Assembly (NCBI GenBank): GCA_000004985.1
Contig: GG738931.1
From: Naegleria gruberi
Lineage: Eukaryota
DNA: 64,000 bases
Strand: one strand, 5' to 3'
Under the pieces are notes generated by a model. That model was not told where the DNA came from. It ran no database searches and was given only the letters and a program-made list of their open reading frames with translations. The position numbers and the translations under genes were made by a program. Below are positions 1 through 28,350 of the stretch, one piece after another (the stretch's first letter is position 1; every line of letters starts with the position of its first letter).

Positions 1-388
1 CCAAACCCAAACCCAAACCCAAACCCAAACCCAAACCCAAACCCAAACCCAAACCCAAACCCAAACCCAAACCCAAACCCAAACCCAAACCCAAACCCAA
101 ACCCAAACCCAAACCCAAACCCAAACCCAAACCCAAACCCAAACCCAAACCCAAACCCAAACCCAAACCCAAACCCAAACCCAAACCCAAACCCAAACCC
201 AAACCCAAACCCAAACCCAAACCCAAACCCAAACCCAAACCCAAACCCAAACCCAAACCCAAACCCAAACCCAAACCCAAACCCAAACCCAAACCCAAAC
301 CCAAACCCAAACCCAAACCCAAACCCAAACCCAAACCCAAACCCAAACCCAAACCCAAACCCAAACCCAAACCCAAACCCAAACCCAA
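1..388. repeat. Terminal tandem array of about 64 CCCAAA units (TTTGGG on the G-strand). This is a candidate telomere at the contig/chromosome end.
   Basis: Perfect hexamer periodicity from base 1 to ~388. The C-rich strand reads 5'->3' on the + strand, as expected at a left chromosome end. Confidence 0.8.
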
Positions 389-961
389 CCTCCACCATTA
401 TAATAACTTCCAAATAAATATTATTCCAATTCCGAAACATCTTCTAAATAATTCCAATCAATATATATTTTTAAAATTATTATGAAACAACTCCTGATGA
501 TATGATGATATGATACGATGATACGATGATATGATGAGATGATTGAATGAGGAAGAGAAAGAGAAGACATCACATTTTTTTTGTATGTTACTTTTCCGTC
601 TCACAATTATCTATTCTATTTTTAAATTTTTCGGTTTGAAAATTATCATTGAAGATGAAATTTTGCAAATATTTAGAAACCTTCCTTCTTGATAATTACT
701 TAGTCGATCAAGGAGGAACAACGTTCTTTATCCATCATTTGGTCTGTTCCCCGATTTTAAATTATAAAATTTTCATTTTTACTCGCTTTTCTAACTTTCA
801 ATATTTGTCTTTCAAACCTGTGCCTTATTGTTCGATGAATATTTGATTTAAAGATGTCATCCTTTCAGGGTAGCTCCTCCTAAATATATAGAACAAGTTT
901 GTAAGATATCATAATGAATGGTTAAGTAGTTTTTCATTGAATAATCAAAGAGTATGTATTT

Positions 962-976
962 CCAAACCCAAACCTT
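962..976. repeat. Short interstitial telomere-like CCAAACCCAAACC tract.
   Basis: About 2.5 telomere units sit immediately 5' of the dispersed repeat. Confidence 0.5.
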
Positions 977-980
977 GAAC

Positions 981-1090
981 AATATTAAATTTCACTAAAA
1001 TATTAATATTATCAGATTTCCACAAATATTACTATTATAATGATGATAAATAACAATGATGATGGTTGGTAGTTGTTCCGATGTGATGGA
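981..1090 (+). repeat. Dispersed ~110-bp repeat, copy A. Copy B is at 54744-54856.
   Basis: About 95% identity over ~110 bp with 54744-54856 (aatattaaatttcactaaaatatta...gatgatggttggtagttgtt). Both copies lie 5' of +-strand F-box/LRR genes. Confidence 0.6.
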
Positions 1091-1108
1091 ACACGGTAGT
1101 ATCTGGAA

Positions 1109-1564
1109 TTGAAAAAAATGACTCAAGTTAAAGGTTTGTGTGATGATCAAAGTTTGCTAATGATTGTAATAGAAATATTTTCTGATGATGTAATTTATGA
1201 AATTATTTCCTATTTATGTGATGATTGGAAATTCGTATTATTAAATTGCGTAATGGTAACAAAACAATGGTTGAACGTCATCCGAGATCGATCCGAGCTT
1301 TCAATGATGGCGAATAATCATTTGGTCAATCAAGTAAATAATGAATTTTTGGATTGTTTTGTATCAATAACATTTGCACGCAATATTTTAAATGACAATT
1401 GGTTTAACATGTTAGGACGTATGACTCAATTGACCACTTTGGAAATTGGAAATAATCTAATTGATGACAATATGGTTAAATTAATTAGTGAAATGAAACA
1501 GTTGACAGGCCTTGATTTGGAAATCAATCAAATCTTCAATGAAGGAGCCAAATCCATCAGTGAA
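1109..1564 (+). CDS. F-box-like/LRR protein of the RNI-like family B. It is a 3'-truncated fragment that stops at the gap and the interstitial telomere array.
   Basis: ATG at 1109. F-box-like motif IFSDDVIYEIISYL...VTKQWLNVI, then LRR units (LTTLEIGNNLIDDNMVKLISEMKQLTGLDL). It is a paralog of the 28351-29335 gene. The tracked ORF continues into N's and CCCAAA, which is an artifact. Confidence 0.6.
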
Positions 1565-1614
1565 NNNNNNNNNNNNNNNNNNNNNNNNNNNNNNNNNNNN
1601 NNNNNNNNNNNNNN
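1565..1614. other. Assembly gap (50 N).
   Basis: Run of n. Confidence 0.95.
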
Positions 1615-1865
1615 AACCCAACCCAAACCCAAACCCAAACCCAAACCCAACCCAAACCCAAACCCAAACCCAAACCCAAACCCAAACCCAAACCCAAACC
1701 CAAACCCAAACCCAAACCCAAACCCAAACCCAAACCCAAACCCAAACCCAAACCCAAACCCAAACCCAAACCCAAACCCAAACCCAAACCCAAACCCAAA
1801 CCCAAACCCAAACCCAAACCCAAACCCAAACCCAAACCCAAACCCAAACCCAAACCCAAACCCAA
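1615..1865. repeat. Interstitial (CCCAAA)n telomere-repeat array, about 42 units.
   Basis: Same hexamer as 1-388 with a few variant units (AACCCA). Confidence 0.8.
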
Positions 1866-1921
1866 GCCTAAAAACCCAAGCCTAAAAACCCAAGCCTAAA
1901 AACCCAAGCCTAAAAATCTAA
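1866..1921. repeat. Four copies of a 14-bp CCCAAGCCTAAAAA telomere-associated satellite.
   Basis: Direct tandem repeats, with degenerate copies continuing to ~1990. Similar motifs recur at 5281-5310. Confidence 0.6.
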
Positions 1922-2525
1922 ACCTTTGAACCTAAAATTGAAATACCAGACCCAATGTTTCAAAGTTCAAACCCTAGCCCAAATTATTGAATATTATATC
2001 ATTCGATTGTAAATGATGAGTAGAACAATGTATTATATTTAGTTTTTCAATTTATAAAATATTAACTTTGTAAATAATGTCAGATTAAAAATTATAAAAT
2101 GAAACCATAGGAAGAATGATAATTTCAAAATCCTTTAATGAGATTATATAGTATATATCTTCACTAACAACATTCATAATCACTCTCATATGAAATTTCT
2201 AAACTTCATGTCTGTAGGTATAAAAGTATCAAGTGAAAAGGGAAGATGTGAGGTAAAAGAGGTCAACAATAACTTTTGAGTTTCTCATCAAAACATATTG
2301 AATCCTAATATGAAAATGTTCCATTTGATTATTAAACATCGAATATCAAATTTATTTTAACTTTCATATTTAAAGATTTCTTCCCTCAACCACACATGGT
2401 CAACTATGATGAAAAGGTGGAAATCTTGATAAAGGACCACCTATTGAAACTTTACCAAAATGATTTATATGATCTATAGTGATATAGAATTCAATTTCAT
2501 ATCATAAGAATTAGAAATGGTACCA

Positions 2526-5162
2526 NNNNNNNNNNNNNNNNNNNNNNNNNNNNNNNNNNNNNNNNNNNNNNNNNNNNNNNNNNNNNNNNNNNNNNNNNNN
2601 NNNNNNNNNNNNNNNNNNNNNNNNNNNNNNNNNNNNNNNNNNNNNNNNNNNNNNNNNNNNNNNNNNNNNNNNNNNNNNNNNNNNNNNNNNNNNNNNNNNN
2701 NNNNNNNNNNNNNNNNNNNNNNNNNNNNNNNNNNNNNNNNNNNNNNNNNNNNNNNNNNNNNNNNNNNNNNNNNNNNNNNNNNNNNNNNNNNNNNNNNNNN
2801 NNNNNNNNNNNNNNNNNNNNNNNNNNNNNNNNNNNNNNNNNNNNNNNNNNNNNNNNNNNNNNNNNNNNNNNNNNNNNNNNNNNNNNNNNNNNNNNNNNNN
2901 NNNNNNNNNNNNNNNNNNNNNNNNNNNNNNNNNNNNNNNNNNNNNNNNNNNNNNNNNNNNNNNNNNNNNNNNNNNNNNNNNNNNNNNNNNNNNNNNNNNN
3001 NNNNNNNNNNNNNNNNNNNNNNNNNNNNNNNNNNNNNNNNNNNNNNNNNNNNNNNNNNNNNNNNNNNNNNNNNNNNNNNNNNNNNNNNNNNNNNNNNNNN
3101 NNNNNNNNNNNNNNNNNNNNNNNNNNNNNNNNNNNNNNNNNNNNNNNNNNNNNNNNNNNNNNNNNNNNNNNNNNNNNNNNNNNNNNNNNNNNNNNNNNNN
3201 NNNNNNNNNNNNNNNNNNNNNNNNNNNNNNNNNNNNNNNNNNNNNNNNNNNNNNNNNNNNNNNNNNNNNNNNNNNNNNNNNNNNNNNNNNNNNNNNNNNN
3301 NNNNNNNNNNNNNNNNNNNNNNNNNNNNNNNNNNNNNNNNNNNNNNNNNNNNNNNNNNNNNNNNNNNNNNNNNNNNNNNNNNNNNNNNNNNNNNNNNNNN
3401 NNNNNNNNNNNNNNNNNNNNNNNNNNNNNNNNNNNNNNNNNNNNNNNNNNNNNNNNNNNNNNNNNNNNNNNNNNNNNNNNNNNNNNNNNNNNNNNNNNNN
3501 NNNNNNNNNNNNNNNNNNNNNNNNNNNNNNNNNNNNNNNNNNNNNNNNNNNNNNNNNNNNNNNNNNNNNNNNNNNNNNNNNNNNNNNNNNNNNNNNNNNN
3601 NNNNNNNNNNNNNNNNNNNNNNNNNNNNNNNNNNNNNNNNNNNNNNNNNNNNNNNNNNNNNNNNNNNNNNNNNNNNNNNNNNNNNNNNNNNNNNNNNNNN
3701 NNNNNNNNNNNNNNNNNNNNNNNNNNNNNNNNNNNNNNNNNNNNNNNNNNNNNNNNNNNNNNNNNNNNNNNNNNNNNNNNNNNNNNNNNNNNNNNNNNNN
3801 NNNNNNNNNNNNNNNNNNNNNNNNNNNNNNNNNNNNNNNNNNNNNNNNNNNNNNNNNNNNNNNNNNNNNNNNNNNNNNNNNNNNNNNNNNNNNNNNNNNN
3901 NNNNNNNNNNNNNNNNNNNNNNNNNNNNNNNNNNNNNNNNNNNNNNNNNNNNNNNNNNNNNNNNNNNNNNNNNNNNNNNNNNNNNNNNNNNNNNNNNNNN
4001 NNNNNNNNNNNNNNNNNNNNNNNNNNNNNNNNNNNNNNNNNNNNNNNNNNNNNNNNNNNNNNNNNNNNNNNNNNNNNNNNNNNNNNNNNNNNNNNNNNNN
4101 NNNNNNNNNNNNNNNNNNNNNNNNNNNNNNNNNNNNNNNNNNNNNNNNNNNNNNNNNNNNNNNNNNNNNNNNNNNNNNNNNNNNNNNNNNNNNNNNNNNN
4201 NNNNNNNNNNNNNNNNNNNNNNNNNNNNNNNNNNNNNNNNNNNNNNNNNNNNNNNNNNNNNNNNNNNNNNNNNNNNNNNNNNNNNNNNNNNNNNNNNNNN
4301 NNNNNNNNNNNNNNNNNNNNNNNNNNNNNNNNNNNNNNNNNNNNNNNNNNNNNNNNNNNNNNNNNNNNNNNNNNNNNNNNNNNNNNNNNNNNNNNNNNNN
4401 NNNNNNNNNNNNNNNNNNNNNNNNNNNNNNNNNNNNNNNNNNNNNNNNNNNNNNNNNNNNNNNNNNNNNNNNNNNNNNNNNNNNNNNNNNNNNNNNNNNN
4501 NNNNNNNNNNNNNNNNNNNNNNNNNNNNNNNNNNNNNNNNNNNNNNNNNNNNNNNNNNNNNNNNNNNNNNNNNNNNNNNNNNNNNNNNNNNNNNNNNNNN
4601 NNNNNNNNNNNNNNNNNNNNNNNNNNNNNNNNNNNNNNNNNNNNNNNNNNNNNNNNNNNNNNNNNNNNNNNNNNNNNNNNNNNNNNNNNNNNNNNNNNNN
4701 NNNNNNNNNNNNNNNNNNNNNNNNNNNNNNNNNNNNNNNNNNNNNNNNNNNNNNNNNNNNNNNNNNNNNNNNNNNNNNNNNNNNNNNNNNNNNNNNNNNN
4801 NNNNNNNNNNNNNNNNNNNNNNNNNNNNNNNNNNNNNNNNNNNNNNNNNNNNNNNNNNNNNNNNNNNNNNNNNNNNNNNNNNNNNNNNNNNNNNNNNNNN
4901 NNNNNNNNNNNNNNNNNNNNNNNNNNNNNNNNNNNNNNNNNNNNNNNNNNNNNNNNNNNNNNNNNNNNNNNNNNNNNNNNNNNNNNNNNNNNNNNNNNNN
5001 NNNNNNNNNNNNNNNNNNNNNNNNNNNNNNNNNNNNNNNNNNNNNNNNNNNNNNNNNNNNNNNNNNNNNNNNNNNNNNNNNNNNNNNNNNNNNNNNNNNN
5101 NNNNNNNNNNNNNNNNNNNNNNNNNNNNNNNNNNNNNNNNNNNNNNNNNNNNNNNNNNNNNN
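2526..5162. other. Assembly gap (2637 N).
   Basis: Run of n. ORFs called across it are artifacts. Confidence 0.95.
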
Positions 5163-7606
5163 CACCCAATCCATATAATAATTGAACACAATATTTAACG
5201 TAGATAAAATCGATTTACTTTGAAAAGTAATTTTAAAAATTATACGCCAAAATAGAGCAGCTTTCTTGTAGTGTTGAATTTATTTGTCCGAAAACCCAAG
5301 AATCTAAACCTAAAAACCTATGCTAATTGAATATTCAATCTCATACCGGAAAAGATTCTTATTTGCGGAAAAAGATTCGAATCTTAGCGAATCTTCAATC
5401 AATTTCGAATGGAAACTGAATCTAAGAATCCAAGAATATCGAAATCTTTACCACTTTCCAAATAACAACGCAAACAACAAATACACCAAATCTCGATATC
5501 TAGATAGAAAGTATTTACTTTTTTTAAAACTTTACTGAAAAACCTTTCCAAAAGCCCAAGATTCACTTAAAGACTCTATATTAGATCATAAAGACCATGG
5601 TGCCACCGAAGTAACAAATCAAAACAACTCTAATCCATACCCAACCAACCTTTTATATTCATGATTTCAACTCTAACATGCCATCTGATAAACTATGGAC
5701 ACGGATGAATTTCTGGAAAATGACCACCCTATGAAACATTACCATCATGTTCCACATCTCAAATAATGTATATAATTCAGTTTTTAGACGTTTTGGTGAA
5801 CATTCCATCTTTCAGTAAGGTAAAGAGTGATTTATCAAGGTTGACTTAGGAAATCTTGAATATAGAAAACCATATCCTCAATCAACAAAATACATATCAA
5901 TCGATTGGAAATCATTAGTACATCTCGAAAATATCATTTATTTTATGTTTTGAAATCTCTCCTTTACCTCTTTTGGTCAATTAAGACAATTAAGGATGAG
6001 AATATAGGAAAAATTACCAATCTCAAAATAATTGATAATATCGAGTTCTACATCTCAAATAAAGTGGACTTTCATCAAATTATATGTTTTCATTTCAAGA
6101 AATGCATTCAGTAGATAGTACATGGTGATATTTCAAGAGAATGGAAATCTGAAGGATACAGAAACAACTCCATTTTCACTGAAATTGATATCATGGTATG
6201 CAGACACTCCAATTAGTATGTGGTATCAATTTCATGAATATTGGTTCAGTAGATGTCGAGATGTCAACTCTATCAATTTACTATAGATATTTGACATGAT
6301 ATCATAGATTATACTCCAACTCACTCATTTTACATATAACAAGTCTAGAATTGATACCACATAGTCTATATATCAATTAAATACATCTACAATAGTTTAG
6401 AAACATTTCAAACTACTTTCATAAAACTANNNNNNNNNNNNNNNNNNNNNNNNNNNNNNNNNNNNNNNNNNNNNNNNNNAGTTGAACACCATCGATAGCA
6501 AATCATCTCTAGTATGACATATATTTTTTATTGATCAATTTCTGATCATTCTTTTACCTTTCCCTAGGAATAGTAAAATCGCAATATATTGAGTGAGGAA
6601 TTGCTGATTATCTCAATAATTAGATAAGAAACCATACACAATCTATAGCCCACTGGATAGCTGAGATTGTAACCTATTTAATGATGTATATCATTGATTA
6701 TGTATTTCAATAATAATGAAGATCCAATGAGTACGAAACGATAACCAACCTCTCAGGTCTTTACGATACAAGAGACGTTAATAAATATTACAATTTACAT
6801 GTTACTTATTCATATTGCATGCAAATCAACCTGATTCAATCTACAAAGGTTGGTAGTTGCACCACTTCGTGGCGAAACTACCCATCCACGATGAATCAAC
6901 ATTAGATTCACTTCCATTCAACTCAATTTGACCGTTATAATCAATAAATCAATGAAATGTTTCTTTATTAGCAAACCCTATTCAATCTAATGAGTAGATT
7001 CACGTCCCAAACATTTGACTTCTAAAAGTCCATAATTCAAAAGTTAGTACTGACCTGACCTTTAAATATCTATCAATACAAGAAATGAAACCATCAAATT
7101 TACATCATTAATAGATGATAAGAAATATAATCAATGATATAAATCTTCACTAAGTAATCTCTTAAATAACCCAAATAAATCAACTCTGAATACTAAGTAC
7201 ATTATTTGGAAGAGCCACATAGATTTTGGATACTATCTGAACTGAAATGAGGTAGAAAGAGTACAATCTTCAACACCAAACAATTTATGTCTTATTAATA
7301 TTGTTCCAAGTGCGATAATTAGGACACAACATGAAATTTTACAAAATACCAATTATAATTTCGAATTAGTTGGTGAAATACGTAAAAATAATGCTAATGT
7401 TGCATATATTTGCTTCGGATTCTGAATTATTGATTTTAAAATCCGGGGAAATAAAGAAGGCCGAAAGCAAAATATCTAATATTGAAATAGAGGAACCATT
7501 CGATGGAACTACCACTTTACTATCAAAATGTTATGAAAATTAAGAGTATCATTCAGTTGATGCTTCTTCATCATATAATTTTCAATTTCCATTCATCATT
7601 CAGAAT

Positions 7607-9019
7607 TTAAACAATTTGATTGTACATAAAGTTTCCTTTCTCTTCTGCCTTAACAGCTCCATCCATTCTATCCACATAATAAATTCTATCCAATGGCTGT
7701 TCATCCCATTTTGCATAATGTGTCAGGTAATGGTCCCATCTTCCAGCATTTCCTCCATTCACACCTTCATTTGCAATGGTTCTTACACGAGGAGAACAAG
7801 GCACAAGAGTGTATCGTTGTTCACTTACTCTCAGTTGACTCATTCCATAATCATAAATTCTACCATTGACCTTCCATTGACTGTAATATTCCATAAATAT
7901 TTCCCTGGTAATTCCACTTCCCCATCCAGGAAAATAATCCTCCTCGACCAATTGATGCACTGAATGAATTCCACACTTTGAGGACTTGTCATTTTTCAAT
8001 TTATCAACTAGGAAATGACAATCAACAGTTGAACCTTGAGTAAATGCAGTAATTGCAAATATTTTCTTGCTATCATAATAATTAGCTTCCTTTCCATACA
8101 CCAAATGATACAAACTGTAATGATATCTGTAAAAATCAGGACTTGCTTCCAAATCATCTTCCAATGTAATCACATATGGATAATCAAGTTTTTGAGTTAA
8201 CATGTACATTCCATAAATGTAATGTGAATTCAAAATTAGTCCAATATCTTGTTTTAATTTATCCATTCCTAAACTTCTCATATCTGTCAAGTATGGGTGG
8301 AAATAAACTTTGATTTTCACACAAGTAACTTTAACTAATTCTTCCAAAACTTCATCAAAATCTCCACCATCAATTGTGACATAGAGAATTGTATCAGAAA
8401 TGTCATCAATTTGACAGATGGCAGCTAGTGAAATATCCAAAGGACTTCTTCTCTTGAATGCTTTCAACCAAATAGGTAAATGCCCCTCCTTTGGTGTCAA
8501 ATGTCCATTCAAAGTAAATCCCAAATTATTCAGCTTTAGTTTTTCAGTATTTAATTCTTCTCCGTCTAAACCTCTGGAAATTCCTTTCCAATATTTTCCA
8601 TTATTTTCCAGCCATTTAATGAAATTGGTTTCGTGAGCAAAAGTAGATGGTGAGAAATTAGGCCAAGGATCACTTTCGTCTCGTTTCTTCCTAGGCGAAA
8701 CTCTATTATAAAGAGTTCCTTCACATTGCTGGGATTGAAGAGTATACATTTGAAGAGGAGGAATAACTGCAAGTGGTTTAATATTTACTAACGAGACATG
8801 TTTCGGTAATTTATCATGGAAAGGTTTCGTATTAGATTCTTCTAATTGACGACGAGTGGCATGTTGATGCTGATGGTTATGTGTTAGAAAGACAGAAAGT
8901 ATGTAATAAAGAATGGCTGCACCTCCGATAAAGATGAATAAACGTTTCAGCGTTATCTTGCTTCGTAGCATTTCGAATATTTTTTTTTGAAAGGTTTCTG
9001 AGAATCCTTTCCACCACAT
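7607..9019 (-). CDS. GT13-family N-acetylglucosaminyltransferase I-like (MGAT1-like), type II membrane glycosyltransferase.
   Basis: 470-aa single ORF. N-terminal signal-anchor (LFIFIGGAAILYYILSVFL). The motif ITLEDDLEASPDFYRYH matches the GnT-I EDDLEVAPDFFEYF signature. Confidence 0.6.
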   Translation of the reverse strand: MWWKGFSETFQKKIFEMLRSKITLKRLFIFIGGAAILYYILSVFLTHNHQHQHATRRQLEESNTKPFHDKLPKHVSLVNIKPLAVIPPLQMYTLQSQQCEGTLYNRVSPRKKRDESDPWPNFSPSTFAHETNFIKWLENNGKYWKGISRGLDGEELNTEKLKLNNLGFTLNGHLTPKEGHLPIWLKAFKRRSPLDISLAAICQIDDISDTILYVTIDGGDFDEVLEELVKVTCVKIKVYFHPYLTDMRSLGMDKLKQDIGLILNSHYIYGMYMLTQKLDYPYVITLEDDLEASPDFYRYHYSLYHLVYGKEANYYDSKKIFAITAFTQGSTVDCHFLVDKLKNDKSSKCGIHSVHQLVEEDYFPGWGSGITREIFMEYYSQWKVNGRIYDYGMSQLRVSEQRYTLVPCSPRVRTIANEGVNGGNAGRWDHYLTHYAKWDEQPLDRIYYVDRMDGAVKAEEKGNFMYNQIV

Positions 9020-17249: not shown

Positions 17250-18806
17250 ATGACTGTAATACAAAATAACAACAAGAAGAGAAAGCACGAAGAATCATCA
17301 CAATTTCCTTCCGATGATGAATTTTGTGAGGATGGAAAAATAATGGACGAATCGGATTTATTTGAAGAATTGATGGAAGTGAATTGTAAATTAATTTCAT
17401 TGGCGAAAAAGGCAAAAGTTGTTGATTGTCGTTATTTTATGTACAATAGTGGAATAATTGATGAATTTATTGGCAATTTTTATGAATTTTTAAAACAAGC
17501 TGAGTTGCAACAGAAGAAGGCTGTAAAATCCTCTTCGGAACAGTTTAATTCGGATGTTTTATCAGAGATTTATCAATTCTTGGATACATCAACGGTCATA
17601 CATGGATGTGGATTGGTTTCTAAATTGTGGAATCAATCATTAAAGGGATTGAAATTGAAAGTCAGAGCTCAAAACATTGACATTTTATTGAATAGTTCAA
17701 TAATTACAAACATCACTCAATTGGAATTGGTTTCTACCACTGATGAAACATTTAAATTACTTTCAAATTGTAGAAATTTGGATAAACTGAACTCATTAGA
17801 TTTGTCAAGTAATAAGTTAGAAAAGGCATCCATTGATCATTTAATTAAATGTCATATGCCAAATTTGACAGAATTGAATTTGGCTTATATCAAACAATTT
17901 ACAGAAACAGCAGCAATAGAATTGTTAAACAGCCGTTTTATGAAAAGCATTAAGAAATTGGATTTATGTGAATCTTTAGAGAATTGTTCAAAGAATTTAT
18001 TTGCTTCCATTTCACAATCAAAAATTTTGAATCAAATCACCCACTTGAAAATTAATAGGTCCACTTATAATAGATACATAACGGACAAAGAGCATGGAAT
18101 TGATATTTTCTTGAATGATAAATTCAGTTTAGAACATTTAGAAACAGTACATTACCAATTGGATGTTCTTCCTAATTTATTAACAAATGGAAATTATAAG
18201 AATTTGACCTCACTTGATATTTGCAGTTGTAAAATTAGAAATCAAGTATTTGCAGATTTGATTGTTTCACCAAATTTACCCAATCTCACAAGTCTAAATG
18301 CTACGTATTTGCGTGAAGTGGATGACGACAAATCAGTTGCAGAATTTCCTCCAAATAGTGAAAGTTCACTTACTGATTTGGATTTGGGTAACTTCAGAGT
18401 AGCATCATTTCCTAAACTTGTTGATCATTGTCCAAAACTAAAGAAACTCATAGTTTATCCAGCAAATACCGATGAGGAATCAAAGAAAATACTTCTCAAT
18501 ATGATGAAATCTCCAAATTTATCTAATGTAGAATATTTGGACATATTATGTTGGAACGAAACATCAGAAATTATATTTACCAATCCAATCTTGTCTAATT
18601 TGAAGGAATTACATTTATCACCACTTCATTATGATGATACCGTAGACGTAAAATTAGTATCAAATTGTACAAATTTGATAAATTTAACAACGTTAATACC
18701 TTATACTGACATGGTAACTAAAGAGTGCTTACAGGAATTCAAGAAGAATCCAACCTTTGCAAAATTGAATATACGAGATTTTATGGGACGACCATTGATG
18801 ATTTGA
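17250..18806 (+). CDS. F-box-like/LRR protein, family A paralog 1 (518 aa).
   Basis: True ATG at 17250. F-box-like motif LNSDVLSEIYQFLDTSTVIHGCGLVSKLWNQS, then LRRs (NLTELNL, LTSLDICSCK, LSNLKELHL). About 45-50% identical to the 21596 ORF. Confidence 0.75.
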   Translation: MTVIQNNNKKRKHEESSQFPSDDEFCEDGKIMDESDLFEELMEVNCKLISLAKKAKVVDCRYFMYNSGIIDEFIGNFYEFLKQAELQQKKAVKSSSEQFNSDVLSEIYQFLDTSTVIHGCGLVSKLWNQSLKGLKLKVRAQNIDILLNSSIITNITQLELVSTTDETFKLLSNCRNLDKLNSLDLSSNKLEKASIDHLIKCHMPNLTELNLAYIKQFTETAAIELLNSRFMKSIKKLDLCESLENCSKNLFASISQSKILNQITHLKINRSTYNRYITDKEHGIDIFLNDKFSLEHLETVHYQLDVLPNLLTNGNYKNLTSLDICSCKIRNQVFADLIVSPNLPNLTSLNATYLREVDDDKSVAEFPPNSESSLTDLDLGNFRVASFPKLVDHCPKLKKLIVYPANTDEESKKILLNMMKSPNLSNVEYLDILCWNETSEIIFTNPILSNLKELHLSPLHYDDTVDVKLVSNCTNLINLTTLIPYTDMVTKECLQEFKKNPTFAKLNIRDFMGRPLMI

Positions 18807-19656
18807 TTTTTTGAGGAACATTACTTGATATTGAAAAATAATTCATATAAGCATTTTGACTTAGTATTGAACGATAAAGCGAATTTGAAGCATCCTTCAT
18901 ACGGTGAAATACTGAGTTTCTTTTGTTTTGGACAATAATCCAATAGTGAAGGAAAATATACAACTCTACAATATCTAAAGCATGATGAATTTGTTGGAAT
19001 CGGATGAAAGCTTAGATATTGAACTAGTTCAATTTAACATCATTTATTACTGAATTGGTGGTCAGCAAAGAATGCTCACACAATCCGACCTTTTCCGTTT
19101 TGAAAAAAATAGATCATTTTAGGATTCCAGAATTTATTGTGTAAACGTGTGCTAGAATTCTAATGATCTTACATTAAGCACTTGTTGGATAGTTCTTCTT
19201 TCCTATCTGTAATCCAGCAATGTAAAGCTAAAATAAATCAACAAAGTGGAATGTTTTGTAGCAAGAATAGATTTTCCTCCTTCTTTCATTAAGCACTAGT
19301 GTCACTCTATTAATTAATTGTGAAAACAACCAACCTTCTCCATTAACTGTTTAATTGAATGAAGTCAATAATTTAATCCAAAATTGATTTAAATAAACGT
19401 TTCCAATCTAATTATTCAGTTTCTATGGATTGCAGGTAGGAATGGAAAATAATCACAAATTAATGTGTATTTGAAAGAACTTTAAGTTTTGACATTTAGA
19501 GCTGGAGAGAATTTTGTGCATGGTAGAAGTTGGTGATTTTCTCGATAAATACTTATCATATTTTAAGAATTTCAACTTTCTGTGATAGAACAGGACCACT
19601 ACATGATACCCATAAAAGTTGGAGGTTCGAAAAATAGTATTGAGGAAGAAAAAGGT

Positions 19657-19737
19657 TGCAGAAGGTGGGATTTGAACCCACGAAGCTTGCGCAGTAGAAC
19701 TTGAGTCTACCCCCTTTGACCACTCGGGAACCCCTGC
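19657..19737 (-). tRNA. tRNA-Leu (anticodon CAA), 81 nt, no intron.
   Basis: Minus-strand read GCAGGGGTTCCCGAGTGGTCAAAGGGGGTAGACTCAAGTTCTACTGCGCAAGCTTCGTGGGTTCAAATCCCACCTTCTGCA. It has a 7-bp acceptor stem, D-arm, anticodon stem GTAGA/TCTAC with loop CTCAAGT, a long variable arm and a T-arm GGTTCAAATCC. It closely matches eukaryotic tRNA-Leu. Confidence 0.85.
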
Positions 19738-20190
19738 TTCACATTATAAATTAAATACTTTCTATCATAAAATAAGCCTATCATTGGGATAACTATATTA
19801 CAATATCAATGATAACAATTTCAGTATGAAGTCACCACTTCAAAGAATTTGTTAATATATCAAGGGAACTTTCAACAAAAAATTCCACAAGTGCACACCG
19901 CGATTTTTTTCATCACTACAATAATTTTTATTTCCATCAATTCATCATCATTATGAACATAACACCAATAATTCAATCTAAACAAACAATCAATAGGGAG
20001 CATTAAAAGTATCTAATTCAATTCTACCGATCCGAATCATGTGGATACAATAGGTTGAACCTTCTTTGGCGGTATTTTAAGTTTTGTAAACTCAATCCCA
20101 GCAAACAACACCGATTTGCCTAAATTCGTGCTGAGCCAAAATACAGCAAAAATCCAACAAGAAAAAAACACAACAACATCAATAATAATA

Positions 20191-21509
20191 ATGATGGTAC
20201 GTACCAACACACAAATATTCTGTTCTAATAACCAACAATATAATCATTCGCACTAATTAATCATCATCATCATCATGATGACCACACAATATATTCTTGT
20301 TATCCGAACTATTCTAACACAACATTATTATAGACTGCTCAAGTTCCAGCTGGTAAATTCATTGCCTTTGACTATGTCGAATTCTGGGTTGGTAATGCCG
20401 TCCAAGCTCGTGATTACTACATTTCTCGTTTCGGATTCAAGCCATACGCATTTAAAGGATTAGAAACTGGTTCCAAGGAATTGGTGACCCACGTTATCAG
20501 ACAAAACAATACAATTCTTGCTTTCAGTTCACCACTCTTGCCTGCTTCAAAGAGTGCTATTGCCAAGGAAATGACAGCTCACCATGCTGAACACGGTGAT
20601 GGTGTCAAGGATATTGCTTTCACTGTTGATAATGCTGAAGCAATTTATAAGGCTGCTGTCGAAAATGGAGCCATTTCTGTCAGAGAACCAACTGTCTTGA
20701 CTGATGAATTGGGAAGTGTCAAGATTGCTAGTGTCAGAACTTATGGTGAAACTATTCACACTTTTGTTGAAAGAGCCGAATATAAGGGTAAATTCTTGCC
20801 AGGTTTCAGAATTATTGAAGAATCAATTGTTGAACCATTCGAAAATTTCACTCCAAGTCTTGGTTTGTTGTACGTTGACCACATTGTCGGTAATCAAGGA
20901 TGGGGAGAAATGACTCCTGTCTGTGACTGGTACGAACAAAAGCTCGGATTCCACAAATTCTGGAGTGTTGATGATTCTGTTATGCACACTGAATTCAGTG
21001 CTTTGAGTTCTACTGTTATGGCTGATTCGGAAGAAAATGTCAAGATGCCAATCAATGAACCTGCCAAGGGTAAGAAGATGTCACAAATTGAAGAATTTGT
21101 TAATTTCTATGGTGGTGCTGGTGCCCAACATATTGCTTTGAGAACTGAAGATATTATTCACACTGTCACACAAATGAGAGCTCGTGGTGTTGCCTTCTTG
21201 CCAACTCCAGACTCTTACTATGACAATTTGAGAAAGAGATTAGCTCATGCTCCAATTACTGTCAAGGAAGATATTGATGTTCTTCAAAAGTTGAAGATTT
21301 TGGTTGACTTTGACGATAAGGGATACTTGTTGCAAATCTTTACCAAGCCAGTTGAAGATAGACCAACCTTGTTCTATGAAATTATTCAAAGAGCTAACAA
21401 TTCAGGATTTGGTGCTGGTAACTTTAAGGCTCTCTTTGAATCCATTGAACAAGAACAAGAAAGACGTGGTACTTTGGTTGAAACTTGTGATTACAAGATT
21501 CAATGTTAA
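20191..21509 (+). CDS. 4-hydroxyphenylpyruvate dioxygenase (HPPD) with 2 exons.
   Basis: Exon 1 is 20191-20196 (ATGATG|GTACGT). The intron runs to TTATAG at 20333. Exon 2 is 20334-21509 (TAQVPAGKFIAFDYVEFWVGNAVQARDYYISRFGF...GFGAGNFKALFESIEQEQERRGTLV), with HPPD signatures throughout. Confidence 0.8.
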
Positions 21510-21595
21510 GTCCACAATCGATCATGACCATTGTGTAAATTTTTGTAAATAAAACAATAAAACAATTTTGTAATATTTTAGAAATAAGTAAAAAA

Positions 21596-23119
21596 ATGAC
21601 GGTAATTCAAAACAAGAAGAGGAAACATGAAGAATCATCACATCATGATGATGATGGAAAAATGTTTGATAATGCTGATAATATTGAATCGGTTTTATTT
21701 GAAGAAATGACGACAGTTAATTCCCAATTGCTTTCATTGGCAAACAAGATGAAACTGGTTGATAATATTTATTTTACAAAGAATACCGAAATGATTGATG
21801 AATTTATTGGAAATATTAACGAATTTTTGAAACAATTAGATATGCGTAGGAAGAAGGCTTTTTCTGAAAAATTGAATTCCGATATTTTGTCTTATATTTA
21901 TCAATTCTTGGATACAAATATTCTTAAAGAATGTTGTGGTTTAGTTTCTAAATTATGGAGACAATCAATAGGATTGAAAGTGAAAGTGAGAGATATTGAT
22001 ATTGATAAATTTGTAAATTGTTCACTAATTGAAAATGTAACGTACCTACAATTGGTTGATACTACTGAAGAACCAGAAACATTTAAATGGCTTGTAAATT
22101 GTAGAAATTTGGATAACTTGAAATCATTAGATTTATCTGAAATCGAATTGGAAAATGTAGAGTATTTAATGAAATGTCACATGCCTAATTTGACAGAATT
22201 GAATTTGGCGAAAAGGGTATCTGATGAGGAAGTGGTAATAGAATTGCTTACCAGTAGTTTCATGACCAGTGTTAAGAAATTGGATTTATCATATTCATTC
22301 TACGAATTTCCAATTGATATATATGAATCAATTTCAGAATCTAACTATTTGAGTCAAATCACTCATTTGAACCTTGATAATATGGAATATTTAGAATTTA
22401 CTGGGCTGGATTTACTGCTGAAAGATAAAGTGAATTTGGAACACCTACAAATACGCAAGCATTGTTTGGTTAGTTATCCAAATTTATTTACGAATGGAAA
22501 TTATATGAATCTCACATATCTTGATATTTCCAGTTGTCAATTAAGTAGAAATCAAGAATTTATAGATTTAATGTTTTCTCCAAACTTGCCAAATCTTACA
22601 ACACTCAAGGGCAAGGCGTTATGGGCCGAAGAAGATGGCAAAGAAAAAGACATAGTTGTTGAAATTCCTCCAAACAGTCAAAGTTCTCTCACTGATTTAG
22701 ATATAAGATATTGTAGGGTTGGATTTTATCCATCACTCTTTAATCACTGTCCAAAACTAAAGAAATTATCAGTTTATTCTTTACATGATGAGGAATCAAA
22801 GAAATTACATCTCAATATGATGAAATCTCCAAACTTGACAAATTTAGAATATTTGAAAATGGATAGTTGGAATGAAGCATCAGAAATTATCTTTACCAAT
22901 CCAATCTATTCGAATTTAAAGGAATTACATTTAGTAAGACCATTCAGGAATGGTGAAAACTTAAATGTAGAACTAGTATCAAACTGTAACAATTTGGTCA
23001 ATTTAACAACATTAACTGTATCTGTTGAAACACAAGACTTGCAAGAATTCCAGAAAAATCCCACATTTTCCAAACTGAAAAGAATATCCAATATTGTAAT
23101 ACCACAAAAAAGGCTATGA
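21596..23119 (+). CDS. F-box-like/LRR protein, family A paralog 2 (507 aa).
   Basis: ATG at 21596. The N-terminus MTVIQNKKRKHEESS is almost identical to paralog 1. F-box-like motif LNSDILSYIYQFLDTNILKECCGLVSKLWRQS, then LRRs. Confidence 0.75.
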   Translation: MTVIQNKKRKHEESSHHDDDGKMFDNADNIESVLFEEMTTVNSQLLSLANKMKLVDNIYFTKNTEMIDEFIGNINEFLKQLDMRRKKAFSEKLNSDILSYIYQFLDTNILKECCGLVSKLWRQSIGLKVKVRDIDIDKFVNCSLIENVTYLQLVDTTEEPETFKWLVNCRNLDNLKSLDLSEIELENVEYLMKCHMPNLTELNLAKRVSDEEVVIELLTSSFMTSVKKLDLSYSFYEFPIDIYESISESNYLSQITHLNLDNMEYLEFTGLDLLLKDKVNLEHLQIRKHCLVSYPNLFTNGNYMNLTYLDISSCQLSRNQEFIDLMFSPNLPNLTTLKGKALWAEEDGKEKDIVVEIPPNSQSSLTDLDIRYCRVGFYPSLFNHCPKLKKLSVYSLHDEESKKLHLNMMKSPNLTNLEYLKMDSWNEASEIIFTNPIYSNLKELHLVRPFRNGENLNVELVSNCNNLVNLTTLTVSVETQDLQEFQKNPTFSKLKRISNIVIPQKRL

Positions 23120-23518
23120 TCACAGAAGAATCATAAAATAATATGATAATGATGAAGGCAGTTCATTCACAATTAATTTTATTGGCAAATTTGGAAAATT
23201 TATTCAAAGAATTTATGAAACAATTTGAAGTTCTTGTGCTTGCTTGGCACACTATATCTTAATAGTGGAGGAATTTATTGCCTTAATTTCAGATCAAAAT
23301 ATACTACAATAACGAATCTATTCAGATTCTCATAATGGTGATCAAAAAAAATGGAACAACGAAATACAGGAGTTGTTACTACTGCTAATAATTTATTGAT
23401 GGTGATGATGGAGGATGATCATCATCAATGTTGTTTGGATATATCTTCCTCATCAAAATTACTGGCCACCAAAATGAGAGAAATTCCACAGAAGGATATT
23501 TGAAATTATTATCAATGT

Positions 23519-23990
23519 TTGAATATTGCTTCGCGAACGAGTGATGATTCTGTTTGGGAAGAAGATAGAGAGGCAATTGATGTACAGAATAATCATGATG
23601 AAAATCAACTAATTGATTTAAAAATTGATTGGATTAGAGATCGAAATGATTTTGAAATTGTTAGAACTGCTGTACAAGAAAATGGTGAAGCGCTGCATTT
23701 ACATCAAAAGAATTACAAATAATAAGGAAATTGTCTTGCTTGCTTTAGATTCTAGACCAAGATCATATTCATATGCATCCAATGAATTGAAGAATGACAG
23801 AGATGTAGTTTTTAAAGCTTTAACCAAAGATATCCTATTGCTCTTCAATATGCTTCTCCTTTGCATCATTGGTCAATCACAACAAGAACCAATAAATGCT
23901 TCTATTATTTAACAACACACCATGAAAGAATTTACTGCATGTTGAAAATTGCATTCACAGGAACATTCAAAGAACTCTTTTGATGTCAGT
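23519..23990 (+). pseudogene. Relic of a DUF4116-type helical repeat protein with at least 2 frameshifts.
   Basis: Repeat units ...DFEIVRTAVQENGEALHLH / NNKEIVLLALDSRPRSYSYASNELKNDRDVVFKALTKD / YPIALQYASPL are spread over three frames. Confidence 0.35.
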
Positions 23991-24048
23991 AGTAAATTGG
24001 AAGATGTGCATTTAGAAAATTGATTTTCTTCAACACAATTTAAAAAAA

Positions 24049-26216
24049 ATGTTACCATCATCATCTGCTGCCGCATCTTCGCCTTCGAAGAATAAACAAA
24101 ACGAAAAGGAAGATTCCTTGTCAAAAGAACAAGTTATTGTCGATAGAAAGTACTATGAAAATTTACCACCTCCTTCCTTTAAACAAATGTCAGAATTTTG
24201 TAGAAACATTCTCATGAAGAAATCAGGAGCCACCTTTCATAACTCCAATGCCAAGTTAATTCCCTACCGAGGATTCCCATCCATTTATCATGCAGAGACA
24301 TTCTTCATGTTGGTTTCTGATCGATTGGGATGCATGGATTGTCATTCCTTTCTTGATCGTTATGAAATAATTGAAAATCCAAGCAAGGAAAATGATGATT
24401 TGATGAGAAAGATTAAAAAGAAATCGTTGGATCAGTTGCAAAATTTGATAAAGAGCAAGCAAGTGAATGTTTCAATTTTGGATACTGGTAGCAGTGAGCA
24501 AATTAAGAGAATTCCATTTGTTGTGGGTAGGTTTTGATTTTCACACGCAAGTAATATTGAATTTTATTGATTGGATGAAATGTGATTTATTTGGAAATTT
24601 AATATTCCTTATATGGAAAATTGAAATTCTTTGATTAATTGTTGAAAATCAAATGTTAATTGGATGTGAAATTAACAGTTCATGGAAGATATTCACCTCC
24701 TGAAGCTGCATTTCTATTACTTGCTTGGTGTGATTACTTGGTTAGTGTTTTGGAAAAGTTTAAACTTGCCTCAACTGAAACAGATCAATTCTTATTGAGC
24801 AGAATTGAATTGGTCAATCGTGTGAGAAAGGCACTTTCATGGAGAGTTTCACATAAACACGCTCTAGATTTGCAAAAGTATATGAAGGATCAGAAAATTA
24901 CAGAATTTTCCTCATCCAGCATTTCCAATAAGGTTTCCTTCATGAATGACAAGTTTAAACCAATAATTTCACTTCCAAAGATTGATATTGAAAAGATTAA
25001 CAAGATTTTGAAAGATGCAGAGCTACCAACAGTCAATTATCCACGTAATTTGAGTGAATATAATTCTTTATTGGATACTCTTGAAGAATTGGCTGGAGTG
25101 AATGCAAGTTCAATTTCATTCAGATTGAGAAATAGAAAAAACTCAAAACCAACCAAAACAGCAGTCTACTCTCCTCAATTGAATCATCAAACCAGAAAGA
25201 CCAATTTACACTCCTCCTTATGGCATTTCAGAAAGTACAACAAGTTATTGGACATTTGTGGAAGAATTAGAGGAAGATTATGTAATGTCAGTCATCCGTA
25301 CATTACAGGAGTTGCCACACGAATTGATAAAAGTGGAATGACCACTTTTATTTTCAAAGATGAACATTACATGTTCGATGAGACCAGTTATGAATCCATC
25401 ATGAATGACATTGACGTTCCATCGGTGGTTTTCGTGGCCATGGCAGTAAGTCTTTTCAGTGTGAGAAAGGAATTTACCTTAAACAGTCAAATTCAAGGTA
25501 AACTCGATCCATTCCTGGTTAATATTTTGGATATTTGCAGATTGAGAAATGAAAAGACAAGATGGGATTTGATTGCCTCTGTTTATCCAATGGAAGACAT
25601 TGTTTCGAATTTATCAGGAGAAGGTAAATTGAAACTCTTGTCCAATTTTCTAGATTTACAAATTCCAATGGCATTCTTTTTACAGAAACAATACGATATT
25701 GGAGTTAAATATTGCATTGAAAAGGGAATGTCAGTTCCTAGATCTGGATCTTCCTCAGTTGACTCGACTGGTTACAATGCAGTTGTTGGAGCTTGGAATA
25801 ATTCAATTCGTTTCATTAGAATGATCACTAAAACACTCAATCAACCACCTCCAATGCTATTGAAATGCATGAAATTGACAGCTGCCGATCAAATGAAAAT
25901 GTTTTCCATGTATGGAAGAGGAGAACATGCTGACGTTGCTCTCTTTGTTGAATTGGTAAAGAAAGGCATCACTCCATGGGGTATTATCATTGGAAATTGC
26001 TCTGTTGCTATTGAGGACTTGATCAAATTATGTAAGAAATTCAAAATTGATCCAAATACTTGGTTGGGTTATACCAATTACAGAGTTTCAGATGATTTTG
26101 TGTTTAATGAATTGATTTGTGGATGTGTCATTCCAAATACCAGCATTGCACAATCTATTTTGAAAAAACTCAATGCCTATGGATACAAACCTCATAAATC
26201 CATTAAGAAAAAGTAG
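24049..26216 (+). CDS. Conserved-looking hypothetical protein, about 675 aa, 2 exons.
   Basis: Exon 1 is 24049-24526 and ends ...RIPFVVG with donor G|GTAGGT. The 152-nt intron runs to the AG at 24678. Exon 2 is 24679-26216, in phase (…VHGRYSPPEAAFLLLAWCDYLVSVLEKF…). Confidence 0.55.
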
Positions 26217-26252
26217 TTCTTAATAAGAATATATTTATTTTGGTGGCTGTGC

Positions 26253-26639
26253 TTAATTTTGATTGGTTGGCTTGTTTTCTTCAGTATGATTCATATTTAC
26301 TGGATTATTATTAACAACTGGATGGGAAGGTTGTTGTAATATTTGAGGATGTTGAGGTTGACCATTTTGAGGATAAGGAGTATATTGAGTTGGATAAGTT
26401 TGATTATTGAAAGCTTGTTGGTGGTTTGGATTGTAACTGTTTCTATTATCCCAACAATTGTGTCTATCATGAGAACCACAGAATGGACCATAATGATTCT
26501 GATGAGATTGATTGCAGTTATTGTTTCTTCCCCAAACATAGCCAACGAAACCACCCACGAGCATACCAAAGAAGAATTTTGGGAATATTCTTGGTCTCAT
26601 TCTGTAGCTGTAGTCATAGTAAAATCTTGGACCCTTCAT
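26253..26639 (-). CDS. Small Pro/Asn/Gln-rich protein (128 aa) with one TM segment.
   Basis: ATG at 26639. Hydrophobic FFFGMLVGGFVGYVWG, then a low-complexity tail. Convergent with the upstream gene. Confidence 0.35.
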   Translation of the reverse strand: MKGPRFYYDYSYRMRPRIFPKFFFGMLVGGFVGYVWGRNNNCNQSHQNHYGPFCGSHDRHNCWDNRNSYNPNHQQAFNNQTYPTQYTPYPQNGQPQHPQILQQPSHPVVNNNPVNMNHTEENKPTNQN

Positions 26640-27009
26640 TTTGTTTATATTGTTGTTATTTTGTTATCCTTGTTTTTTTCAAGAATTTCATTTGATAACA
26701 GAGCTATTTAAAAATAACAAAATATGTGCCGTGCAGGCTGTGGACTTTTTGGTGTGGTTTTTTATTATTCCATCGATGCGCTTAATTTTGATAGAGTGGC
26801 AATTTGATGGTACTATTTGATTGATTTTAGAAAGGGTGAGCATTTCACTTATTGTTGCTTCCTTACTTTGTACCAAATATGTGGAATAAGAAGATTGTAT
26901 AATTATATTCGCTTCTGATACATTAAAGGTAACAGATTGACTATTTGCAATGATACTTGTGATAACGAACTAAGTTTACAAGAATTTTTATAGTACAGGT
27001 CTATAGTGT

Positions 27010-27653: not shown

Positions 27654-28350
27654 TTTTTTTTTCTGATATTAAGGCGCGAAATTCTAGAAATTTGAACAAT
27701 TAAGGAAAATCTGGCGGTGAATAGGAATTTTTCGTTGATGATTTTGCATTCTGAATTTTGATAAAGTTTAAAATTTTATTTAAAATCTAATTATTATTAA
27801 ATATTCCAATTATTCCCAACATATTTTTAATTTTTAAAAATTATTGAAAAAAATACGTGAAATGCTCAACCACCAATTACAAAGCAATGATGGAAGAATT
27901 TAAAAAAACAGCCACAATATCTGTGGTCAGGTTCTCGGCGCATTTTTGTGATGCTCCCAAAAAACATGGAATGCTCCCAAAGCTGATTTACCTGTAGGGG
28001 TAATTGGATGCGCCAATAACACCGATTTATTACTTAAGCAAATTCACTCAACTTCAACAAAGCATATCTCAATAACAACACTGGATGTTAGAGAAACATA
28101 CCGTATGGTCATTATTAATTATGTTAACAATCATAATATCAAGTTTGTTACTGATTTGGCTCTTTACTTATCGAGAAAAGTGATTTCAAAATTTTCATAT
28201 GTGGTAGTAAGACGAGCATGTTTTCTTGGTTAATACAAATAACTGATATTCAATAAAACAGAATCTTGTAGAAAACATCAATTAGAACAAGAATAATAAA
28301 TAATATTTTTATTTCACTAAGTATTAAATTTAATATTTCCTTTTTTGTAA

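What the first reader, a model, noticed from the sequence alone, without database searches (positions are those of the whole stretch)
1..388. Terminal (CCCAAA)n array: candidate telomere with a TTTGGG unit
About 64 perfect hexamer units start at base 1. The C-rich strand reads 5'->3', which is the orientation of a left chromosome end. TTTGGG is not the common TTAGGG/TTTAGGG unit, so it may help identify the lineage. It also marks everything downstream as subtelomeric.
Basis: seen in the sequence. Interest (0 to 1): 0.55.

Follow-up and report, generated by a model that had tools for sequence, protein, structure and literature searches.

The report
Naegleria TTTGGG telomere on gapped scaffold
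The perfect (CCCAAA)n run at the start of the window is a real telomere repeat of a Naegleria amoeba, a motif already proposed for Naegleria gruberi in 2013, but it sits on a 1.6-kb contig joined only by an assembly gap to a second contig that starts with the same repeat.

Summary
Bases 1-388 hold a 5-nt partial unit, 63 perfect CCCAAA units and a final CCCAA; shuffles give no match.

The telomere reading is well supported:
- The C-rich strand reads 5'->3' from base 1.
- The 62 kb beyond base 1930 hold no copy of two or more units.
- The window comes from a Naegleria genome. Its composition and gapped-scaffold form fit N. gruberi.
- Fulneckova et al. 2013 (PMC3622300) already list TTTGGG as the in-silico candidate telomere of N. 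gruberi.
- In metagenome contigs, terminal (CCCAAA)n arrays lie in telomere orientation 25 times and the opposite way 7 times. One assembly has 14 of 14 correct, and two of its contigs carry genes pointing to Heterolobosea.

The window is a scaffold with N gaps at 1565-1614, 2526-5162 and 6430-6479. Directly after the first gap a second array begins (1615-1865, same unit and orientation), followed by degenerate telomere-like repeats. So two contigs each start with a telomere tract. Array 1 is physically joined to only 1,176 bp of unique sequence. Contig 1 is probably an allelic or different chromosome end, and less probably the outer part of a nested telomere-element-telomere structure. The rest of the scaffold is subtelomeric mainly because of array 2.

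Telomerase dependence is inferred and was not tested. Novelty is low.

The parts
1..388 (+). Telomeric array 1. The C-rich strand (CCCAAA)n reads 5'->3' from base 1: a 5-nt partial unit, 63 perfect units and a terminal CCCAA. The junction to unique DNA is abrupt, with no degenerate variants.
389..1564 (+). The only unique sequence physically contiguous with array 1 (the rest of contig 1). It is AT-rich and non-coding up to about 1117 and includes an imperfect GATGATA-type microsatellite at 495-543.
961..975 (+). Short telomere-repeat relic (CCAAACCCAAACC within tccaaacccaaaccttgaac), in the same orientation as the arrays.
   Evidence: 6e-4 occurrences expected by chance in 62 kb, both strands
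976..1088 (+). About 115-nt repeated element, 91.5% identical to window 54740-54856. It starts directly after the relic and lies upstream of an LRR gene in both copies.
1118..1564 (+). 5' part of an LRR gene (149 codons), cut off by the gap. It is 40% identical to the window's LRR gene at 28409-28789, which ties contig 1 to the same genome.
1565..1614 (.). Scaffold gap of 50 N between contig 1 and contig 2.
1615..1865 (+). Telomeric array 2, with the same unit and orientation. It starts at the first base of contig 2 and has 39 perfect CCCAAA units plus two CCCAA variants near its outer edge.
1858..1935 (+). Degenerate telomere-associated repeats, (CCCAAG CCTAAAAA) x4, decaying into C/A-rich telomere-like sequence. 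This is the inner boundary of array 2.
1936..2525 (+). Unique AT-rich sequence of contig 2, with no long ORF.
2526..5162 (.). Scaffold gap of 2,637 N.
5290..5331 (+). Weak telomere-associated-like relic (AAAACCCAAGAATCTAAACCTAAAAACCTATGCTAATTGAA) resembling 1898-1942. Its significance is marginal.
   Evidence: local score 32; shuffle mean 18.3, maximum 30; best elsewhere in the window 29
6430..6479 (.). Scaffold gap of 50 N. Dense long ORFs begin from about 7.6 kb.

Best explanation
Bases 1-388 are the assembled part of a chromosome-end telomere of a Naegleria amoeba, most probably N. gruberi. The G-rich strand (TTTGGG)n lies on the minus strand of the window and runs 5'->3' toward the end.

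By analogy with other short G/T-rich telomeres, telomerase would add the tract, using an RNA template that is a permutation of CCCAAA. The tract would cap the end against end-joining and replication loss. This mechanistic step is inferred, not shown.

The 388 bp is a lower bound set by assembly. The window is a gapped scaffold in which two contigs (1-1564 and 1615-2525) each begin with such a tract. So two telomere-bearing ends were placed in series. Array 2 has a degenerate inner boundary and is the better candidate for the cap of the DNA that continues into the scaffold. Contig 1 has an abrupt repeat/unique junction and a truncated LRR gene. It most likely represents the other allele of this end or a similar end of another chromosome, placed there by mate-pair scaffolding.
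For: Shown here:
- The hexamer array is perfect, starts at base 1, and has its C-strand 5'->3'. Chance expectation is zero.
- A second array of the same unit and orientation starts at the first base of the next contig.
- No run of two or more units occurs in the other 62 kb on either strand.
- The lineage is Naegleria. The subtilase ORF has its best named hits in N. lovaniensis and N. fowleri at 47-49% identity. The window has 33.7% GC against 36.5-38.1% in the loci fetched from those two species. N. gruberi is the Naegleria assembly listed as made of many scaffolds and contigs, at 35% GC.
- Contig 1 belongs to the same genome. Its LRR ORF is a paralogue of the gene at 28.4 kb, and a 118-nt element is 91.5% identical to 54740-54856.
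- In public metagenome contigs holding (CCCAAA)8 or longer, 32 arrays lie within 30 nt of a contig end. Of these, 25 are in telomere orientation and 7 are opposite. One assembly (JAESGV01) has 14 of 14 correct. Two of those contigs carry genes that point to Heterolobosea: a SETD1 whose best named hit is Acrasis kona at 49% identity, and two PPR-DYW genes.

Literature: Fulneckova et al. 2013 found TTTGGG as the candidate telomere repeat of N. gruberi from its position and orientation in the assembly (PMC3622300).

Inference for the two-end layout: a 251-bp internal tract would normally be spanned by Sanger reads and would not start a contig after a gap.
Against: - No experiment (Bal31, terminal restriction fragments, TRAP) exists for this motif in Naegleria. 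The 2013 paper itself says experimental tests are still required.
- No telomerase RNA or TERT was examined. Rfam finds no telomerase RNA in the window, and no paper in the library deals with Naegleria telomerase.
- I cannot see beyond base 1, so an array that continues into more sequence upstream is not formally excluded.
- Species identity is inferred. No 100% N. gruberi protein hit was returned.
- The allelic or mis-scaffolding reading rests on reasoning about assembly behaviour, not on reads.
- Only 2 of the 14 JAESGV01 contigs were assigned to a lineage.
Confidence: 0.85

Rival explanations
1. The nested structure is real. One chromosome end carries a terminal telomere (1-388), a 1.2-kb or longer gene-bearing segment, an internal telomere tract (1615-1865) with its old telomere-associated repeats, and then the rest of the chromosome. 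This would arise if an older end was extended by capture or break-induced copying of another subtelomere. It would resemble yeast Y' elements separated by internal telomeric tracts.
For: - The scaffolder placed the two contigs in series, in the same orientation, only 50 N apart.
- Telomere-like relics also occur further in, at 961-975 and weakly at 5290-5331. This hints at repeated rebuilding of this end.
- Fulneckova et al. note that most genomes with terminal repeats also hold internal blocks of them.
Against: - Contig 2 begins exactly in the array, and no assembled read bridges from unique sequence into it. A 251-bp internal tract should be spanned by Sanger reads (inference).
- The LRR gene of contig 1 is cut by the gap rather than seen to abut the repeat.
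- The CCCAA variants lie at the outer edge of array 2, as expected for a low-coverage contig end.
Confidence: 0.25
2. The array is an ordinary internal hexanucleotide microsatellite or satellite. It lies at the window start only because an assembler or the window cut stopped there, and it has no telomere function.
For: - In the metagenome scan, 48 of 80 arrays are internal, mostly in GC-rich contigs, so (CCCAAA)n also exists as a plain microsatellite in other organisms.
- Sequence upstream of base 1 cannot be inspected.
Against: - Two independent contig starts in this window carry the array in the same end-directed orientation, and none occurs in 62 kb of interior.
- The perfection of 63 units is typical of enzymatically renewed tracts.
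- Contig ends show a 25:7 orientation bias, and 14 of 14 in one assembly are correct.
- There is an independent published assignment for N. gruberi.
Confidence: 0.05
3. Contig 1 is foreign DNA, for example from a ciliate such as Paramecium whose macronuclear telomeres contain TTTGGG, and was mis-scaffolded onto a Naegleria scaffold.
For: Paramecium telomeres contain C3A3 units (10.1101/2025.11.06.686955). Contig 1 is short and AT-rich.
Against: - Paramecium tracts are random mixtures of C4A2 and C3A3. Here 63 of 63 full units are C3A3.
- The contig-1 ORF reads through 149 codons in the standard code and is a paralogue of a gene at 28.4 kb in the same window.
- A 118-nt element is 91.5% identical to 54740-54856.
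- Contig 2 carries the same repeat.
Confidence: 0.02

Closest known systems
Candidate TTTGGG telomere of Naegleria gruberi (Fulneckova et al. 2013, Genome Biol Evol 5:468; PMC3622300)
   Same: The hexamer is the same. It has the same kind of evidence: terminal position and orientation in a genome assembly. The genus is the same by gene homology.
   Different: Nothing essential differs; this window appears to be one of the ends behind that report. New here are the exact anatomy (63 perfect units, abrupt junction), the second array after a scaffold gap, the degenerate 14-mer boundary repeats, and the same terminal repeat on contigs of an Acrasis-like heterolobosean in a metagenome.
Paramecium macronuclear telomeres (random mix of TTGGGG and TTTGGG)
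   Same: They contain the TTTGGG hexamer, are added by telomerase, and have the C-strand 5' at left ends.
   Different: Paramecium repeats are a random mixture produced by misincorporation at one template position. Here the tract is pure C3A3. The flanking genes use the standard genetic code and are Naegleria-like.
Tetrahymena-type TTGGGG and Oxytricha/Euplotes-type TTTTGGGG telomeres (general knowledge)
   Same: They belong to the same TnGm class without an A, and the G-rich strand can form G-quadruplexes.
   Different: The unit composition differs (T3G3). The lineage is unrelated: Discoba/Heterolobosea rather than ciliates.
Yeast subtelomeric Y' elements separated by internal TG1-3 tracts (general knowledge)
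   Same: If the scaffold order is real, the layout is a telomere tract, a gene-bearing element, an internal telomere tract, and then the chromosome.
   Different: Continuity across the 50-N gap is not shown. The element here is an LRR gene fragment, not a helicase-encoding Y'. No second copy of the whole element was seen.

Membership tests
Telomerase-type terminal minisatellite telomere (TnGm / TnAGm class) | Tandem array of a short (5-8 nt) unit with a G/T-rich strand | tested here: met
   Period 6, 64.7 copies, 100% matches; 63 perfect CCCAAA units.
Telomerase-type terminal minisatellite telomere (TnGm / TnAGm class) | Located at the physical end of the sequence | tested here: met
   Array 1 starts at window base 1, and array 2 starts at the first base of its contig. 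Limit: sequence beyond base 1 and the raw reads cannot be seen.
Telomerase-type terminal minisatellite telomere (TnGm / TnAGm class) | G-rich strand runs 5'->3' toward the end (C-rich strand 5' at a left end) | tested here: met
   Both arrays have this orientation. In metagenome contigs, 25 of 32 terminal arrays and 14 of 14 in one assembly are oriented this way.
Telomerase-type terminal minisatellite telomere (TnGm / TnAGm class) | Same repeat at many or all chromosome ends of the same genome, in opposite orientation at right ends | tested here: inconclusive
   Only two contig ends of this genome are visible, both left-type. The 2013 survey reports a convincing terminal pattern for N. gruberi.
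Telomerase-type terminal minisatellite telomere (TnGm / TnAGm class) | Rare or absent in the chromosome interior | tested here: met
   No run of two or more units on either strand in 1931-64000. The single hexamer occurs 23 and 12 times on the two strands.
Telomerase-type terminal minisatellite telomere (TnGm / TnAGm class) | Degenerate variant repeats at the inner boundary (telomere-associated sequence) | tested here: inconclusive
   Array 2 has them: (CCCAAG CCTAAAAA)x4 and a decaying tail. Array 1 ends abruptly. This is a common but not obligatory feature.
Telomerase-type terminal minisatellite telomere (TnGm / TnAGm class) | Exonuclease (Bal31) sensitivity or a terminal restriction fragment smear | not testable with these tools
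   This is a wet-lab assay. The 2013 paper states that experimental confirmation is still needed.
Telomerase-type terminal minisatellite telomere (TnGm / TnAGm class) | Telomerase present: TERT gene and an RNA with a template complementary to the unit | not tested
   The window holds no Rfam telomerase RNA. The rest of the genome is not available. No paper in the library treats Naegleria TERT or TER.
Paramecium-type mixed telomere | Random mixture of TTGGGG and TTTGGG units | tested here: not met
   All 63 full units of array 1 and 39 units of array 2 are CCCAAA. There is no CCCCAA unit (definition).
Naegleria gruberi genome (source of the published TTTGGG candidate) | Flanking genes are Naegleria genes, and composition and assembly type match N. 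gruberi | tested here: inconclusive
   The genus is met: best named hits are N. lovaniensis and N. fowleri at 47-49% identity. The window has 33.7% GC and is a gapped scaffold, which fits N. gruberi. No 100% N. gruberi protein was returned, so the species is inferred.

The most novel reading that the evidence does not exclude
The scaffold order is real. This Naegleria chromosome end carries two telomere tracts in series, because an older, complete telomere (array 2 with its degenerate boundary repeats) was extended by a gene-bearing fragment that then received a new telomere (array 1, abrupt junction). That would be a sequence-level record of subtelomere capture on top of an intact telomere. 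In addition, TTTGGG would be the shared telomere motif of Heterolobosea, in both Naegleria and Acrasis-like lineages.
Probability: 0.2. Interest if true: 0.35.

Novelty: already known. Interest (0 to 1): 0.2.

Why it matters
The finding gives a concrete, coordinate-level example of the TTTGGG chromosome end that a 2013 survey proposed for Naegleria gruberi, and it confirms that the motif identifies the lineage. The practical value is a warning. The first 6.5 kb of this scaffold are three small contigs joined by N-gaps, and two of them are telomere-capped. Statements about distance to the telomere or about 'subtelomeric' genes on this scaffold therefore need read-level support. A small extension is that the same terminal repeat, correctly oriented, caps contigs of an Acrasis-like organism in a metagenome. 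That suggests the motif may be shared across Heterolobosea, a group whose telomeres have never been tested experimentally.

Tried and rejected
1. Exact-product look-up of a window ORF (7607-9019) to name the source record found nothing on record. Lineage had to come from homology.
2. I tried to reach chromosome ends of other Naegleria species through orthologues of the window's subtilase. The N. lovaniensis and N. fowleri genes lie 51 kb and 101 kb from contig ends, beyond the 10-kb flank. Their neighbours are not syntenic with the window. Those loci hold no CCCAAA, CCCTAA or CCCTAAA runs. Conservation of the motif within the genus remains untested.
3. I looked for a telomerase RNA. Rfam at gathering threshold gives only tRNA-Leu. 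The 13-nt CCAAACCCAAACC at 961-975 was considered as a possible template. I rejected it: it lies in array orientation 570 bp from the telomere, and the conserved element next to it recurs at 54.7 kb without the motif. It is a repeat relic.
4. Literature searches for Naegleria telomerase or TERT and for Acrasis telomeres returned nothing relevant. The supplementary table of the 2013 paper is not held.
5. Ciliate contamination was rejected.
6. I looked for shared subtelomeric sequence between contigs 1, 2 and 3. There is none beyond telomere-like relics, so homology can neither support nor refute an allelic relation between contigs 1 and 2.
7. BLAST of the window against the 120 metagenome loci found no shared genes.
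8. I left the third homology search unused, because no query available to me could reach TERT or a Naegleria contig end with reasonable odds.

Full report
**Observation.** The array is exactly as described. Window 1-388 reads ccaaa, then 63 perfect CCCAAA units (6-383), then CCCAA. It stops abruptly at CCTCCACCATTATAATAAC. Tandem Repeats Finder scores it as period 6, 64.7 copies, 100% matches and no indels. A three-unit probe with up to two mismatches hits 102 times, always on the + strand. None of 100 dinucleotide-preserving shuffles gave a match.

The window is a gapped scaffold, not continuous sequence. N runs lie at 1565-1614 (50 N), 2526-5162 (2,637 N) and 6430-6479 (50 N).

At the first base after the first gap a second array begins, with the same unit in the same orientation. 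It spans 1615-1865, with 42.2 copies at 98% matches. That is 39 perfect units plus two CCCAA units within its outermost 36 nt.

The inner edge of array 2 is degenerate. It has four copies of CCCAAG CCTAAAAA (1858-1916), followed by a decaying C/A-rich tail. Array 1 has no such transition.

Beyond base 1930 no run of two or more units occurs on either strand in 62 kb. A 13-nt relic, CCAAACCCAAACC, lies at 961-975. Chance would give about 6e-4 occurrences. A marginal telomere-associated-like stretch lies at 5290-5331. Its local score is 32, against a shuffle maximum of 30 and 29 for the best match elsewhere in the window.

**Whose DNA it is.** From about 7.6 kb onward the window is dense with long standard-code ORFs. 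They include:
- EGF/NHL repeat proteins
- LRR proteins
- a BTB protein
- a glyoxalase-fold protein
- an EF-Tu-family GTPase
- a subtilase

There is also one tRNA-Leu(CAA).

The subtilase ORF (43843-46137, minus strand) has its best named relatives in Naegleria lovaniensis and N. fowleri, at 47-49% identity with E-values of 1e-206 or lower. It also has a 98% match on an unnamed ENA metagenome contig.

The window has 33.7% GC. The loci fetched from N. lovaniensis and N. fowleri have 36.5-38.1% GC. In a published comparison, N. gruberi is the Naegleria genome with 35% GC and an assembly of 784 scaffolds from 1,977 contigs (PMC6831594). The source is therefore a Naegleria, most probably N. gruberi. 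The species is inferred, because no identical N. gruberi protein was returned.

Contig 1 belongs to this genome. Its truncated LRR ORF (1118-1564) is 40% identical to the LRR gene at 28409-28789. A 118-nt stretch (976-1088) is 91.5% identical to 54740-54856.

**Is it a telomere?** All sequence-level criteria that can be tested here are met:
- a short G/T-rich unit
- position at sequence ends, seen twice in this window
- the G-strand pointing outward
- near-absence from the interior

The motif is already in the literature. Fulneckova et al. 2013 searched 143 genome assemblies and judged repeats by position and orientation. They named TTTGGG as the unexpected candidate telomere of N. gruberi, while stating that experiments are still needed (PMC3622300). 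No other paper in the library links Naegleria with this motif or with telomerase.

As an independent check I scanned public metagenome contigs for eight or more units and classified the arrays. Of 32 arrays within 30 nt of a contig end, 25 are in telomere orientation and 7 are opposite. The 48 internal arrays sit mostly in GC-rich contigs and are unrelated microsatellites.

One assembly, JAESGV01, contributes 14 terminal arrays, and all 14 are correctly oriented. Two of its contigs carry informative genes. One is a SETD1 whose best named relative is the heterolobosean Acrasis kona, at 49% identity and E = 8e-227. The other contig holds two PPR-DYW genes. From general knowledge, that gene type has been reported in only a few protist lineages outside land plants, Naegleria among them. 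Most of these contigs have long standard-code ORFs. The same repeat therefore caps ends in a second, Acrasis-like heterolobosean lineage.

**How it most likely works.** By analogy with all TnGm telomeres, telomerase would extend the G-strand (TTTGGG)n from an RNA template that is a permutation of CCCAAA. The perfect homogeneity of 63 units fits continuous enzymatic renewal. This step is inferred. No TERT or telomerase RNA could be examined, and Rfam finds none in the window. The assembled 388 bp is a lower bound on tract length.

**The two-array layout.** Two contigs that each begin with a telomere tract have been placed head to tail. I favour the reading that they are two separate ends, either the two alleles of this end or similar ends of different chromosomes. 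Both would be linked by mate pairs to the same inner sequence and so laid in series with a minimal gap. The reasons are:
- A 251-bp internal tract would normally be bridged by Sanger reads rather than start a contig.
- Its single-base variants lie at the outer edge, as at a low-coverage contig end.
- The LRR gene of contig 1 is cut by the gap rather than seen to abut the repeat.

These are inferences about assembly behaviour. Array 2, with its degenerate boundary, looks like the long-standing cap of the DNA that continues inward. The abrupt junction of array 1 would fit a younger or healed end.

The alternative is a real telomere-element-telomere structure, as with yeast Y' elements. The inner relics at 961-975 and 5290-5331 hint at it, and it cannot be excluded. 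I give it about 0.25. Either way the remaining 58 kb is close to a chromosome end, but that rests mainly on array 2 and on scaffold links. It does not rest on array 1, which is physically joined to only 1,176 bp.

**Comparison with known systems.** The closest known case is the same thing: the published N. gruberi candidate. Paramecium macronuclear telomeres also contain TTTGGG, but as a random mixture with TTGGGG (10.1101/2025.11.06.686955). That defining feature is not met here, and the flanking genes are not ciliate-like. The motif belongs to the A-less TnGm class known from ciliates (general knowledge), in an unrelated lineage.

**Verdict.** The feature is real and correctly read as telomeric. 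It is already known as an in-silico candidate and is still unconfirmed experimentally. The added value here is threefold: the anatomy, the assembly caveat of two capped contigs with gaps, and the hint that TTTGGG is shared across Heterolobosea. Interest is low, at 0.2.

Noticed in passing
window 976-1088 and 54740-54856: An element of about 115 nt is repeated at 91.5% identity. In both copies it lies a short way upstream of an LRR-family ORF (1118 and 55238). In contig 1 it starts immediately after the telomere-repeat relic. It could be a shared promoter or 5' region, or a small mobile element.
   Followed up: partly
window 42018-46137 (minus strand): Two adjacent ORFs, a subtilase (43843-46137) and an fn3-containing ORF (42018-43730), both match a single 1,071-aa N. 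lovaniensis protein. They are separated by 112 nt holding an (AAAT)n microsatellite (43753-43829). This is probably one gene with an intron or a frameshift.
   Followed up: partly
window 57235-59766 (minus strand) and 33584-37936 (minus strand): These are large EGF-repeat proteins (teneurin-type EGF, plus NHL repeats in the 1,450-aa one). The 843-aa gene is built of 105/210-nt tandem DNA repeats (58001-58835).
   Followed up: partly
window 17250-31728: A cluster of LRR or F-box-like/LRR genes (17250-18806, 21596-23119, 28466-29335, 30841-31728), with 72/144-nt internal tandem repeats at 28854-29306. The truncated gene next to telomere array 1 belongs to the same family, so this may be a family enriched near chromosome ends.
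   Followed up: partly
L044 1-3765 (metagenome contig JAESGV010000876.1): A Ty3/gypsy-type pol ORF (RT, RNase H, integrase; 1,178 aa) starts about 90 nt from a terminal (CCCAAA)n array that has a short interruption (CCCAACCCACCACACC). Two PPR-DYW genes follow on the same contig.
   Followed up: partly
L005-L082 subset (14 JAESGV01 contigs): All 14 contigs of one metagenome assembly that end in (CCCAAA)n have the array in telomere orientation, with abrupt and mutually unrelated junctions. L043 shows CCCCAA and CCCAA variants at the inner edge. At least two of the contigs are heterolobosean-like (closest to Acrasis).
   Followed up: partly
L001 (ENA ERZ929261 contig, 2,792 nt) vs window 43795-46519: An environmental metagenome contig is 98% identical in DNA to the window. 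A very close relative of the source organism is therefore present in that sample (ERR1078381, PRJEB11402).
   Followed up: no
window 495-543: An imperfect GATGATA / GATGATACGATGATAT microsatellite lies about 100 nt inside telomere array 1.
   Followed up: no
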